Of a stretch of 64,000 nucleotides of DNA, positions 33,835 through 35,080 are shown piece by piece. The notes below the pieces were generated by a model that worked only from the letters and a program-made list of their open reading frames with translations, did not search any database and was not told the DNA's origin. Source of the stretch: a phage; the sequence record PV805631.1, one strand, 5' to 3'. A program made the position numbers and the translations under genes. The stretch's first letter is position 1. Every line of letters begins with the position of its first letter.

Positions 33835-35080
33835 TATCGTGAAGGGTTCTGTCAGAATCCTTTGAGATAGGAACTCCTATCATAACCTTTCTTAACTTAA
33901 TCTTTGCCGTATGGCACTGACGCTAGGGGTGGCCCCCCATCCGTCAGACAGACTATTTTAAGAATAGGTTATCTCAGAAAATGTAAAGCAACATTTGGGT
34001 TAATCAATGGCCTCTACCTATAGGGGCCATTTCTGAATCTTAGGCTATATCCCAAAGGTTAGTATCTTTGGGATAAGGCTTCAGATCCCTTATCAAACTA
34101 ACTGCTCAATGTTGAGTATATTAACTAACCAAGCCCAGTAAGGGGGCGGGAGTTTAATGCCGGTAAGCATAAGCCTATCCGTCTACAACATCGAAGTGTT
34201 AGGTCTTACATGCGATATAGGGTATAAAGGGAGGATTCGTCCCCTCCCTCCTATTATGAACCAATTCAAAGTAGCACTCGTTTATACTTCCAGGTATTCA
34301 AAGACACATTCTTGTGTGAGTGCTACTCTGAATTGAAAGAATTAAGACGGGTCTGGTGAAGTAGATGGGGTTCGATTCCCTCCGGTGGAGTAATCCACTA
34401 GCGTGCTTGGTGCACGAATAAGACTTAGTACTGGTGGTTCGATTCCATCCCCCGTTACCCGAAGTCGCCAGGTACTTATGGCAAACAACGAGGTAGTAAC
34501 GAACTAGTCATTCGTCAAACGCCCACCCAATTATGAGTCAGCAAGAACGCCTTCACTTAAACTTAAACAAAAAAGCTTAACGCAATAATTATGTAGGGGT
34601 ATGTAAGGATTGCGAAGAAGGAGCCAGTTAGAGCCTGGCATGGCTCACCTATTGCATTACCAAGCCACTAGGCAAGTACTGTTAAGCAGTATACACGTTA
34701 TGAGCCTCCTGGGGGCTAGTGGAAGTTGCCAACATCAACGAGATGTCCTGTGTTGTCTCTGAGGCTGCTTGGTAGTGCATTCTAATCAGCAGTAACATAG
34801 TCCTGATTGCATAGCACTCTAAAGACAACACTGGTAAGACAGTCCAGTGGCTGCTAATGTATTGTTATTCCCCTCGACGGGAATTTCGCTAGTGAAGGTA
34901 ACACTTAAAAATCCAAACCCACGTCTTACTACTATCGGGCTATCAACCCACGGTCGCTTAACCCTGTAGTGATAGTAGTTTGACGGCCTGCCTCGTTGAC
35001 TGCGTTAAAGTCACTAAGTCCCTCGGAGCCGTCACTCTGGGGGACTTTTTTATTTGAGAACTACTTATTGGACGATTCAT
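33835..35080. other. ORF-free, hairpin-dense non-coding region at the switch between plus and minus transcription
   Basis: No ORF of 60 aa or more on either strand; multiple long inverted repeats and two tRNA-like T-arm motifs. Confidence 0.5.
35017..35052 (+). terminator. Putative intrinsic terminator (AGTCCC ... GGGACT + TTTTTT)
   Basis: Stem with large loop, U-tract. Confidence 0.45.

What the first reader, a model, noticed from the sequence alone, without database searches (positions are those of the whole stretch)
34364..34457. Two copies of the tRNA T-arm consensus GGTTCGATTCC, 66 nt apart, without a full cloverleaf
GGGGTTCGATTCCC (34367-34380) and GGTGG-TTCGATT-CCATC (34433-34449) both match the tRNA T-stem-loop consensus. 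The second has a proper 5-bp stem followed by a 7-nt acceptor-like strand CCCCGTT and discriminator A, and a possible 5' partner GATGGGG at 34364. I could not build canonical D and anticodon arms by hand. So this may be a non-canonical or long-variable-arm tRNA, a tRNA remnant, or a tRNA-like structural element.
Basis: seen in the sequence. Interest (0 to 1): 0.55.

Follow-up and report, generated by a model that had tools for sequence, protein, structure and literature searches.

The report
Phage tRNA-like RNA with two T-arms
The two tRNA T-arm motifs belong to one unannotated, roughly 113-base tRNA-like RNA gene with no anticodon arm, which unrelated virulent phages (N4-like and T4-like) share and whose fold is kept by compensatory mutations, so it is probably a tRNA mimic and not a decoding tRNA or a dead gene.

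Summary
GGTTCGATTCC occurs exactly twice, at 34369-34379 and 34436-34446. The window is a G7C-like N4-type coliphage, and the motifs lie in a 1.6-kb ORF-poor gap before the virion RNA polymerase gene.

ARAGORN and Rfam call nothing there, but the segment is not a remnant. I aligned 21 distinct homologues from Gamaleyavirus, Klebsiella Kaypoctavirus and four T4-like genera. In the T4-like phages the element sits inside tRNA arrays. The alignment supports one RNA on the + strand, 34346-34457: 96% of cells are paired, against 41-57% in slid controls, and 19 of 33 pairs show double changes.

Its parts, in order:
- a 2-bp hairpin with a UGGU loop
- a possible 3-bp central helix
- T-arm-like hairpin 1
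- a hairpin of variable length
- a D-arm-like hairpin with a UUGG loop
- the true T arm
- a discriminator base, then CC

The inner three hairpins run T / closed acceptor / D. This is the order found in YrlA Y RNAs and in permuted tmRNA precursors, so the RNA looks like two anticodon-less mini-tRNAs fused together. It is not a member of the tRNA, tmRNA, YrlA or T4 rnaC/rnaD families.

The function is inferred, not shown: tRNA-style processing followed by mimicry of tRNA towards host factors.

The parts
34346..34457 (+). Whole tRNA-like RNA, from the first acceptor base to the discriminator A. C34458 and C34459 follow. A34345 can pair with A34457's counterpart in 13 of 21 relatives.
   Evidence: Model R1 scores this stretch at 128 bits and finds nothing else in the window. 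The alignment A2 of 21 distinct homologues is, with structure counts. ARAGORN forced to an 80% threshold picks the same ends, 34346-34459.
34346..34351 (+). Acceptor stem, 5' strand GACGGG. It pairs with 34451-34456.
   Evidence: Four of these six pairs show changes on both sides, and the other two change on one side only. They are 100% paired except for one cell. RNAalifold predicts the stem independently.
34352..34359 (+). Mini D-like hairpin. U34352-A34359 and C34353-G34358 close the loop UGGU, whose GG at 34355-56 is invariant.
   Evidence: Alignment columns 8 and 15 covary as UA, CG and AU in 21 of 21 sequences. Columns 9 and 14 are paired in 17 of 21. This rests on only three clades, so it is suggestive. 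A canonical D stem is not supported.
34361..34363 (+). Possible central helix, 5' strand GUA. It pairs with UAC at 34429-34431 and would close the three inner hairpins.
   Evidence: 98% of cells are paired, but only one-sided changes occur (G-C to G-U, U-A to U-G). This helix is inferred.
34367..34381 (+). Hairpin 1, the first T-arm-like hairpin. Stem GGGG/CCCU, loop UUCGAUU.
   Evidence: 100% paired. Two of four pairs covary (GC/GU/AU and GC/UA/CG). The loop varies only at T-loop positions 57 (G/A) and 59 (U/C).
34384..34399 (+). Hairpin 2, of variable length (5-7 bp). In this window the stem is GGUGGA/UCCACU with a GUAA loop. It occupies the position of a closed acceptor-like stem.
   Evidence: Six of seven pairs show double changes. 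Length and loop differ between lineages.
34400..34416 (+). An AG linker plus hairpin 3, which is D-arm-like. Stem CGUGC/GCACG, loop UUGGU with UUGG invariant. The preceding UAGC is also invariant.
   Evidence: 100% paired, and two of five pairs covary.
34417..34432 (+). Conserved linker AAUAAGACUUAGUACU. It includes the 3' strand (UAC, 34429-31) of the possible central helix.
   Evidence: The core GACUUA is invariant or nearly so across the three lineages.
34433..34449 (+). True T arm. Stem GGUGG/CCAUC, loop UUCGAUU.
   Evidence: 100% paired, and two of five pairs covary.
34450..34460 (+). Unpaired C34450, then the acceptor 3' strand CCCGUU (34451-56), the discriminator A34457, and CCC.
   Evidence: C34450 faces U, C or A at position 34352 in every member, so it is a conserved mismatch. 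Position 74 is C in 14 of 17 N4-like copies. No CCA is encoded in the T4-like copies.
35016..35047 (+). Context only: an intrinsic terminator that probably ends the + strand transcript carrying the element.
   Evidence: A 13-bp stem followed by a T run. It is annotated as a terminator in G7C.

Best explanation
The stretch 34346-34457 (+ strand) is a stand-alone gene for a structured tRNA-like RNA of about 113 nt that cannot decode.

Shown here:
- It has a 6-bp acceptor stem next to a genuine T arm.
- It has a second T-arm-like hairpin.
- It has a hairpin of variable length.
- It has a D-arm-like hairpin with a UUGG loop.
- It has a tiny 5' hairpin with a UGGU loop.
- All of these are kept by compensatory substitutions in N4-like and T4-like phages.

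Inferred fold:
- The RNA forms two fused, anticodon-less mini-tRNAs.
- The outer one consists of the acceptor stem stacked on the T arm, with the T-loop docked on the UGGU loop. It has free ends, a discriminator base and CC.
- The inner one consists of hairpin 2 stacked on hairpin 1, with that T-loop docked on the UUGG loop of hairpin 3. It is capped by a loop, as in YrlA or in the tRNA-like domain of a permuted tmRNA precursor.

Inferred biogenesis:
- The RNA is transcribed as part of a long untranslated + strand RNA in N4-like phages, or as part of a tRNA array in T4-like phages.
- RNase P cuts 5' of G34346.
- The 3' end is trimmed and completed to CCA by the host enzyme.
- TrmA and TruB modify both T-loops.

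Inferred and least certain, the function:
- It acts in trans as a tRNA mimic.
- It would occupy or divert a host factor that reads the acceptor/T minihelix and elbow, not the anticodon.
- Candidates are toxins or immunity nucleases directed at the tRNA end or tRNA body, SmpB, or tRNA-processing enzymes.
For: Presence and chance:
- The two exact 11-mers are confirmed.

Structure:
- On 21 distinct sequences, 96.2% of cells are paired, against 41-57% when partners are slid.
- 19 of 33 pairs have double changes, and 0 of 500 shuffles reach the observed values (earlier version).
- RNAalifold finds the same five helices on its own.

Strand:
- 69 of 684 paired cells are G-U.
- Both T-loop motifs read on the + strand.

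Selection and mobility:
- The three lineages share only 57-66% identity over the element, and their flanks are unrelated.
- N4-like and T4-like copies align at 79% over about 90 nt.
- In VR5, PEi20 and CkP1 the element lies 3-18 nt after a tRNA 3' end and on the same strand as the flanking tRNAs.

Distribution:
- It is phage-only. There were 0 hits in 185,579 species genomes with the family pattern.
- There was no match in 5,426 complete E. coli genomes.
- It is accessory, not core. About 33 N4-like records carry it, out of 197 that match the surrounding region.

Wider occurrence of the architecture:
- The model built from the family finds the same layout in intergenic DNA of three Streptomyces Woodruffvirus phages (37-51 bits) and in one uncultivated phage contig (50 bits).

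Module order:
- The Rfam YrlA consensus, seen on the Bxz1 control, runs stem - V - T arm - closed acceptor stem - UA - D arm - stem. YrlA is described this way in PMC4201824 and in bioRxiv 10.1101/312249.
- Permuted tmRNA genes of cyanophages have the same T / acceptor hairpin / D-analogue order.
Against: - There is no expression, end-mapping, modification or binding data for any member.
- The ends, the processing, the docking of loops and the function are all inferences.
- The comparative signal comes from only three well-separated clades plus close variants, so the 2-bp mini hairpin and the 3-bp central helix are weakly supported.
- The acceptor stem has a conserved mismatch (34352 against C34450) and its register is ambiguous: either 6 bp plus the mismatch, or 7 bp with a bulged C.
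- No aminoacylation identity set is conserved. G3-U70 occurs only in three T4-like copies.
- No conserved neighbouring protein gene points to a partner.
- A cis role as a processing site is not excluded.
- The Streptomyces and L122 matches could reflect convergence on tRNA-like parts and not homology.
Confidence: 0.6

Rival explanations
1. It is a cis-acting processing or stability element. On this view the tRNA-like fold serves only as an RNase P and 3'-end processing signal. It would punctuate the long untranslated transcript (33835-35050), or protect the ends of neighbouring RNAs, as tRNA-like punctuation does elsewhere.
For: - The element lies inside a 1.2-kb ORF-free + strand stretch that ends at a terminator.
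- Conserved structured sequence flanks it on both sides.
- In Streptomyces phages the look-alike sits between two same-strand ORFs.
Against: - A minihelix (T arm plus acceptor stem) would be enough for RNase P. Here the inner hairpins, their loops (UUGG and the second T-loop) and two linkers are conserved across lineages whose flanks are unrelated.
- The element moves between genomes as a self-contained unit, and in T4-like phages it behaves like one more gene in a tRNA array.
Confidence: 0.15
2. It is a non-canonical but decoding or chargeable tRNA. One version is tRNA-Ser(CGA), with hairpin 1 as the anticodon arm and hairpin 2 as a long variable arm. Another is an intron-containing tRNA, as ARAGORN proposes when forced.
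For: - The hairpin 1 loop UUCGAUU can be read as anticodon CGA, and it is followed by a stem of variable length as in class II tRNAs.
- ARAGORN at an 80% threshold outputs tRNA-Arg(CCG) with a 28-nt intron spanning 34346-34459.
- The Streptomyces look-alikes give sub-threshold tRNA-Sec scores (27 bits against 47 needed).
Against: - Default ARAGORN, with the intron and tmRNA options, finds nothing.
- Rfam finds nothing at the gathering threshold for the whole window. The only clan match shown for 34300-34500 at E up to 10 is a 13-nt tmRNA T-loop fragment.
- The 'anticodon' changes CGA to CAA in PhAPEC5 and U1G, which are about 96% and 91% identical to the window over the element. This is the R57 variation expected of a T-loop.
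- Hairpin 1 has a 4-bp stem and a pyrimidine at position 37.
- An extra hairpin and a 16-nt linker have no place in any tRNA.
- The forced ARAGORN model breaks three helices that covariation supports.
Confidence: 0.05
3. It is a minimal relative of the tmRNA tRNA-like domain. It would bind SmpB, or enter stalled ribosomes, without a tag reading frame.
For: - The outer frame (acceptor stem, GG-containing D-analogue without a real stem, T arm) resembles the tRNA-like domain of tmRNA. The 5' linker UCUGG recalls E. coli tmRNA AUUCUGG, but that comparison is from memory.
- The inner module has the order found in a permuted tmRNA precursor.
- The IMG/VR locus L040 holds a compact double-T-arm element. 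Its first 102 nt are 78% identical to the junction of the S-CAM1 permuted tmRNA.
Against: - There is no reading frame and there are no pseudoknots. The length is 113 nt.
- ARAGORN makes no tmRNA call. The Rfam tmRNA model matches only a 13-nt T-loop.
- G3-U70, which is needed for alanylation, is absent from all N4-like copies and from CkP1.
Confidence: 0.07
4. It is a decayed tRNA gene or a recombination scar. The region is mosaic and carries tRNA-Ile, tRNA-Cys and other tRNA genes in relatives, and a homing endonuclease gene lies next to it.
For: - Relatives carry real tRNA genes a few hundred bases away, and the region is full of insertions and deletions.
- An HNH-AP2 endonuclease gene lies 700 bp upstream.
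- The two T-arm contexts look like a duplication.
Against: - Compensatory double changes occur in 19 pairs.
- All four hairpins with 4-5-bp stems are 100% paired, across lineages with 57-66% identity.
- The loops and linkers are invariant.
- Unrelated phage families carry the same element.
Confidence: 0.03
5. It is a DNA-level element, such as an attachment site that mimics a tRNA 3' end, a replication origin, or a target site for a homing endonuclease.
For: - Phage attachment sites often copy the T arm and acceptor 3' end of a tRNA.
- A homing endonuclease gene is nearby.
Against: - The hosts of the element are virulent N4-like and T4-like phages.
- No copy exists in 5,426 E. coli genomes or in 185,579 species genomes.
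- 69 G-U cells make the structure specific to one strand, so selection acts at the RNA level.
Confidence: 0.02

Closest known systems
YrlA, the tRNA-like bacterial and phage Y RNA (Rfam RF02553; PMC4201824; bioRxiv 10.1101/312249)
   Same: The inner module (hairpins 1-3) has the same 5'-to-3' order as YrlA: closing stem, short variable stretch, T arm, closed acceptor-like stem-loop, 2-nt connector, D arm with GG, closing stem. In other words, it is a circularly permuted tRNA core capped by a loop. [quoted passage not shown]
   Different: - The RF02553 model does not match the element at E up to 10, although it does find the Bxz1 control. Model R1 does not match the Bxz1 YrlA.
- There is no Ro60-binding stem or GNCGAAN0-1G motif.
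- There is no TROVE gene within 6 kb upstream or 1 kb downstream.
- Here the module is embedded in a second, open-ended tRNA-like frame with a discriminator and CC.
- The D-like hairpin is 5 bp with a 5-nt loop.
- A 12-nt conserved linker follows that hairpin.
tmRNA tRNA-like domain, including permuted (two-piece) tmRNA genes
   Same: Like the tRNA-like domain of tmRNA, the outer frame has an acceptor stem, a T arm and a GG-bearing D-analogue without a proper stem, and it has no anticodon arm. The permuted tmRNA precursors of cyanophages show the order T arm, acceptor hairpin, D-analogue.
   Different: - It has no mRNA-like part and no pseudoknots.
- It has no conserved G3-U70.
- It is 113 nt long, against 300 nt or more for tmRNA.
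- ARAGORN does not call it, and the Rfam tmRNA model matches only a 13-nt T-loop.
Phage T4 stable RNAs rnaC (species 1) and rnaD (species 2)
   Same: These are small stable RNAs of still unknown function, encoded in the tRNA cluster of a T-even phage and co-processed with tRNAs. rnaC carries a T arm. In T4-like phages the present element also sits in the tRNA cluster.
   Different: - The sequences are different, and model R1 finds no match to either RNA in the T4 locus.
- VR5 has an rnaD homologue after tRNA-Arg in addition to this element, so the element is a third, separate RNA.
Canonical class II tRNA (Ser, Leu, Tyr, Sec)
   Same: It has an acceptor stem closed by the two ends, a T arm with the UUCRANY loop, a discriminator base, and a stem of variable length in the middle.
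   Different: - It has no anticodon arm and no D stem.
- It has a second T-loop hairpin and an extra D-like hairpin.
- It has a conserved mismatch at the junction of the acceptor stem and the T stem.
- tRNA finders do not detect it.

Membership tests
canonical tRNA | Acceptor stem formed by the 5' and 3' ends, directly next to a 5-bp T stem with a 7-nt UUCRANY loop, followed by a discriminator base | tested here: met
   The stem 34346-51/34451-56 covaries and the T arm 34433-49 is 100% paired. Caveat: the seventh acceptor position is a conserved mismatch (34352 against C34450).
canonical tRNA | Anticodon arm with a 5-bp stem and a 7-nt loop carrying U33 and a purine at position 37 | tested here: not met
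   No such arm is compatible with the covarying helices. Hairpin 1 has a 4-bp stem, a T-loop pattern of variation, and a pyrimidine at position 37.
canonical tRNA | D arm with a 3-4-bp stem and a loop containing G18 G19 | tested here: not met
   The candidate stem (columns 9-11 with 18-20) shows no double changes and is broken in 2-4 sequences, and RNAalifold omits it. Only a 2-bp hairpin with a UGGU loop is supported.
canonical tRNA | Recognised by tRNA gene finders or covariance models | tested here: not met
   ARAGORN finds 0 genes, including with the intron option. Rfam finds nothing at the gathering threshold, and no tRNA-clan hit beyond a tmRNA T-loop fragment is shown at E up to 10. tRNAscan-SE was not available.
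tmRNA | tRNA-like domain combined with a tag-encoding reading frame and pseudoknots | tested here: not met
   The RNA is 113 nt and fully accounted for by five hairpins and the acceptor stem. ARAGORN makes no tmRNA call. Rfam tmRNA matches only 13 nt of the T-loop.
tmRNA | G3-U70 alanine identity pair in the acceptor stem | tested here: not met
   Pair 3-70 is C-G in the window and in Kaypoctavirus copies. It is G-U only in VR5, PEi20 and L008, and A-U in CkP1.
YrlA / bacterial Y RNA | Permuted tRNA-like core in the order T arm, closed acceptor-like stem-loop, D arm | tested here: met
   Hairpins 1, 2 and 3 are each supported by covariation and lie in that order. The order in YrlA was taken from the RF02553 consensus on Bxz1 and from the papers. 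The tertiary fold was not tested.
YrlA / bacterial Y RNA | Match to the family covariance model RF02553 | tested here: not met
   There is no YrlA hit at E up to 10 on 34300-34500 or on 33000-36000. As a positive control, the model hits Bxz1 next to its Ro-like gene.
YrlA / bacterial Y RNA | Ro60-binding helix with the GNCGAAN0-1G motif, and a gene for a TROVE-domain (Ro60) protein within about 4 kb | tested here: not met
   The motif is absent from all 21 members. Pfam finds no TROVE domain in nine ORFs spanning 28040-35356. The next downstream gene is the virion RNA polymerase.
T4 rnaC / rnaD | Sequence or structure similarity to T4 species 1 or species 2 RNA | tested here: not met
   Model R1 gives no hit on rnaC or rnaD in the T4 locus at E up to 1. 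The sequences were read directly.
T4 rnaC / rnaD | Stable small RNA processed out of tRNA-cluster transcripts | not testable with these tools
   Its position inside tRNA arrays in T4-like phages is shown. Expression and stability need experiments.

The most novel reading that the evidence does not exclude
This is the founding example of an undescribed class of phage RNAs. Each is a 'twin mini-tRNA': an open-ended tRNA-like frame fused to a loop-capped, permuted tRNA core, with two T-loop/GG-loop elbows and no anticodon. The class spreads horizontally between unrelated virulent phages (Schitoviridae, Straboviridae and perhaps Streptomyces phages). It acts in trans to neutralise or hijack host factors that read the acceptor/T minihelix and elbow of tRNA. 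Candidate targets are tRNA-end-modifying toxins, tRNA-cleaving immunity nucleases, SmpB, and tRNA-processing enzymes.
Probability: 0.3. Interest if true: 0.85.

Novelty: new variant of a known kind. Interest (0 to 1): 0.62.

Why it matters
Phage tRNA regions are now known to be a battleground with tRNA-targeting defences such as PARIS, retron/PtuAB, Septu and OLD (for example PMC13096335). The non-tRNA RNAs in those regions, T4 rnaC and rnaD, have remained without a function for fifty years (PMC3014915).

This finding adds a third such RNA, and its structure is clearly supported. It is invisible to ARAGORN and Rfam, and it is unannotated in every one of the GenBank records examined. In a few it lies under a spurious 'hypothetical protein' or pseudogene call.

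Two properties mark it as an accessory function under selection:
- it has been exchanged between N4-like and T4-like phages of enterobacteria
- it is present in only a subset of genomes.

Its layout of two elbows, one free acceptor end and no anticodon narrows the search for partners to proteins that read the tRNA body. It also makes a direct test practical: a 113-nt deletion in well-studied coliphages.

It further links three kinds of tRNA mimic through a shared module order. These are YrlA, the permuted tRNA-like domain of tmRNA, and phage tRNA-cluster RNAs.

Tried and rejected
- **ARAGORN and Rfam on the window.** Both found nothing, at gathering thresholds and at E up to 10.
- **ARAGORN with introns, lowered thresholds and mitochondrial mode.** This produced only forced solutions that contradict the covarying helices.
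- **Single-sequence folding.** The z-scores were -1.3 and -2.5 and the minimum-energy fold partly disagreed with the comparative structure, so it was not informative alone.
- **A canonical D stem, alignment columns 9-11 with 18-20.** It was not supported. I replaced it with a 2-bp hairpin.
- **tRNA-Ser(CGA) reading of hairpin 1.** Rejected on the pattern of loop variation.
- **Identity with T4 rnaC or rnaD.** Rejected.
- **YrlA membership.** Rejected, although the module order is shared.
- **Host or prophage origin.** No copies were found.
- **A broad scan for two T-loops 44-60 nt apart in IMG/VR.**
  - The result is a mixed bag of tandem tRNAs, tRNA plus permuted tmRNA, collagen-like coding repeats, and a few compact closed elements.
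  - Six of seven acceptor pairs is expected by chance in such a scan.
  - Model hits below about 33 bits include ordinary tRNAs.
  - Only the Streptomyces phage elements and L122 are accepted as look-alikes.
  - L040, which looked like another member, turned out to derive from a permuted tmRNA.
- **Literature searches.** No description of this RNA was found.
- **Supplementary tables of the YrlA paper.** They were not held.
- **BLAST of the element against E. coli tRNA genes.** It was uninformative because of the size of the database.
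Full report
**Where the finding lies.** The window is a G7C-like N4-type coliphage (Gamaleyavirus, Schitoviridae). The 1.8 kb around the finding is 92% identical to phage vB_EcoP_G7C. The finding lies in an ORF-poor gap of about 1.6 kb. On one side are the last + strand genes, an HNH-AP2 homing endonuclease at 33131-33628 and a 56-codon ORF ending at 33834. On the other side is the 3759-codon virion RNA polymerase gene on the - strand. A + strand intrinsic terminator lies at 35016-35047, and no sigma-70-type promoter is seen on the + strand near the element.

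**The observation.** GGTTCGATTCC occurs exactly twice in the window, at 34369-34379 and 34436-34446, both on the + strand. That is far more than chance gives. The proposed 5' partner, GATGGGG at 34364, is not.

**Library tools see nothing.**
- ARAGORN finds no tRNA or tmRNA in the whole window, including with the intron option.
- Rfam finds no family at the gathering threshold.
- At E up to 10, Rfam reports only a 13-nt T-loop fragment of the tmRNA model.
- With ARAGORN's thresholds lowered to 80%, it forces a 'tRNA-Arg(CCG) with a 28-nt intron' spanning 34346-34459. The ends agree with what follows, but the arms do not.

**Relatives.**
- The segment is conserved and unannotated in G7C-like phages. 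Those phages carry real tRNA genes (Ile, Cys and others), but at other places in the same mosaic region.
- A short query recovers 45 phage records. About 27 are Escherichia or Shigella Gamaleyavirus and 6 are Klebsiella Kaypoctavirus.
- The other 12 records are T4-like Straboviridae: Dhakavirus VR5 and VR25, Kanagawavirus PEi20 and PEi26, Karamvirus CkP1, and KLB31. They match at 79% identity over about 90 nt with no similarity in the flanks.
- In the T4-like phages the element lies inside the tRNA cluster, on the tRNA strand, 3-18 nt after the CCA end of a tRNA-Met. In VR5 it lies 9 nt before tRNA-Arg.
- It is not T4 rnaC or rnaD. Their sequences differ, and VR5 carries an rnaD homologue as well.
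- IMG/VR and metagenome scans add only members of the same groups.
- A scan of 185,579 species genomes finds none, and 5,426 complete E. coli genomes hold no match.
- The RNA is therefore phage-only. It is also accessory, being present in a minority of the 197 records that share the surrounding region.

**Structure.** I aligned 21 distinct sequences from the three lineages. They share 57-66% identity between lineages. The structure in window coordinates:

| Part | Coordinates | Sequence or note |
|---|---|---|
| Acceptor stem | 34346-51 with 34451-56 | GACGGG / CCCGUU |
| Mini hairpin | 34352-53 with 34358-59 | loop UGGU |
| Possible central helix | 34361-63 with 34429-31 | GUA / UAC |
| Hairpin 1 | 34367-70 with 34378-81 | loop UUCGAUU |
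| Hairpin 2 | 34384-89 with 34394-99 | loop GUAA |
| Hairpin 3 | 34402-06 with 34412-16 | loop UUGGU |
| T arm | 34433-37 with 34445-49 | loop UUCGAUU |
| Unpaired base | C34450 | faces U/C/A at 34352 |
| Discriminator | A34457 | followed by CC |

- On the alignment, 96.2% of cells form standard pairs, against 41-57% when the 3' partners are slid by 1-3 columns.
- 19 of 33 pairs have changes on both sides.
- None of 500 shuffles reaches the observed pairing or covariation score (first version).
- RNAalifold, given only the alignment, returns the acceptor stem, the three hairpins and the T arm.
- 69 of 684 paired cells are G-U, which fixes the RNA to the + strand.
- A canonical D stem is not supported.
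- The 2-bp mini hairpin covaries as UA, CG and AU across the three lineages, but that amounts to only three independent events.
- The central helix shows only one-sided changes.

**Why hairpin 1 is a T arm and not an anticodon arm.** Its loop keeps the T-loop consensus. It varies only at the positions that vary in T-loops, G/A at position 57 and U/C at position 59, and the true T-loop of the same RNAs varies in the same way. Read as an anticodon it would switch from CGA to CAA between phages that are 91-96% identical over the element. The stem has four pairs, and position 37 would be a pyrimidine.

**Reading of the architecture (inference).**
- The invariant UAGC followed by a GG-loop hairpin resembles U8-A9 plus a D arm.
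- The order hairpin 1 (T-like), hairpin 2 (variable in length, loop-capped), hairpin 3 (D-like) is that of a circularly permuted tRNA core with a closed acceptor stem.
[quoted passage not shown] It is visible in the RF02553 consensus aligned to the Bxz1 control.
- It is also the layout of the tRNA-like domain in permuted tmRNA precursors, which I ran into in cyanophages.
- The outer frame has free ends, a GG loop straight after the acceptor strand, a T arm, a discriminator and CC. It resembles the tRNA-like domain of tmRNA.
- The whole can be described as two anticodon-less mini-tRNAs whose acceptor strands are swapped. Each would have its own T-loop and GG-loop elbow. One has an open CCA-type end and the other is capped.
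- Which loop docks on which cannot be tested by covariation, because these nucleotides are invariant.

**Membership.**
- It is not a tRNA: there is no anticodon arm, no D stem and no detection by tRNA finders.
- It is not a tmRNA: there is no reading frame, no pseudoknots and no conserved G3-U70.
- It is not a YrlA. RF02553 does not match it while matching the control. The Ro-binding motif is absent from all 21 members. No TROVE gene is nearby.
- It is not rnaC or rnaD.

**Wider occurrence.**
- The model built from the family finds the same layout in intergenic DNA of Streptomyces Woodruffvirus phages YDN12, Abt2graduatex2 and Geonosis, at 37-51 bits. Those loci have no tRNA genes, and the element is absent from close relatives.
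- It also finds the layout in one uncultivated phage contig, L122, at 50 bits.
- These may be distant relatives or convergent.
- Lower-scoring hits are mixed with ordinary tRNAs.
- The crude double-T-loop scan returns tandem tRNAs, tRNA plus permuted tmRNA, and coding repeats. I make no claim beyond these two groups.

**Mechanism.**
- Shown: this is a conserved, strand-specific, self-contained RNA structure that moves between unrelated phages.
- Inferred from tRNA biology: RNase P cleaves 5' of G34346, the 3' end is trimmed, and CCA is completed by the host enzyme. CC is encoded in most N4-like copies and nothing in T4-like copies, as for several T4 tRNAs. TrmA and TruB would act on both T-loops.
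- Inferred with low confidence: a trans-acting tRNA mimic that engages factors which read the acceptor/T minihelix and elbow and not the anticodon.
- The argument against a pure processing signal is that the inner hairpins, their loops and two linkers are conserved, although a minihelix would suffice for RNase P.
- The argument against a remnant is the covariation.
- No conserved neighbouring gene, and no conserved aminoacylation identity set, points to a specific partner.

**Verdict.** The element is a new variant of a known kind, the tRNA-mimic non-coding RNAs, and it is not present in Rfam or in the genome annotations examined. Its structure is well supported. Its function is open.

Noticed in passing
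window 34459-34653: The 195 nt just 3' of the element are about 95% conserved in G7C, F22 and UE-S5a. They show a compensatory change in a hairpin (GAGCC...GGCTC becomes GAGTC...GACTC). This may be another structured RNA in the same untranslated transcript.
   Followed up: no
window 34262-34335; L003 about 1447-1532: A long hairpin (CCAATTCAAAGTAGCAC...GTGCTACTCTGAATTGG) lies just 5' of the element. Its base is conserved and its interior is variable. In phage F22 the interior holds a third T-arm-like sequence, GTGAGGTTCGAGTCCTCAC.
   Followed up: no
window 33131-33628: This ORF has HNH_3 and AP2 domains and is a homing endonuclease (G7C gp47.1). It sits next to the mosaic tRNA and small-RNA region, recalling SegB in the T-even tRNA cluster.
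   Followed up: partly
L161 382-696, L162 382-696, L163 346-655, L164 340-691: Cyanophages S-CAM1, S-CAM3, S-CRM01 and S-SSM7 carry permuted two-piece tmRNA genes, which ARAGORN calls as tmRNA* with tag peptides. In the GenBank records these are unannotated or lie under 'hypothetical protein'.
   Followed up: partly
L040 5614-5723 and 6311-6614: An IMG/VR phage contig has a full permuted tmRNA. About 600 nt upstream it also has a compact, closed double-T-arm element. The first 102 nt of that element are 78% identical to the acceptor-piece junction of the S-CAM1 tmRNA. This is a possible evolutionary route from permuted tmRNA to 'twin' tRNA-like RNAs.
   Followed up: partly
L012 7829-7853 (-) and L014 3369-3393 (-): A mini hairpin, CCGG-TAGAT-CAGGTTCGACTCCTG-CCGG, lies between tRNA genes of a 152-kb phage contig. 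It is a T arm closed by a 4-bp palindromic stem.
   Followed up: no
L061, L064, L067, L135: Collagen-like coding repeats (GGTGCTCAAGGTTCAAGTCC...) match the T-loop motif GGTTCRANTCC many times. They are a source of false positives in motif scans for T arms.
   Followed up: no
L006 1-3111 (OY978778.1): Klebsiella phage K60PH164C1 annotates rIIA and rIIB 'pseudogenes' across its copy of the element and across nearby tRNA-like sequence. This is probably a mis-annotation.
   Followed up: no
L157 1223-1279: In Streptomyces phage YDN12 a GC-rich hairpin directly upstream of the look-alike element scores 37 bits (threshold 46) on the Rfam F6 mycobacterial sRNA model, on both strands. It is most likely just a terminator-like hairpin.
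   Followed up: no
window 35438-35465: A bidirectional intrinsic terminator lies between the + strand small ORFs and the end of the virion RNA polymerase gene. It accounts for all the weak Rfam leader and sRNA hits in 35290-35560.
   Followed up: partly
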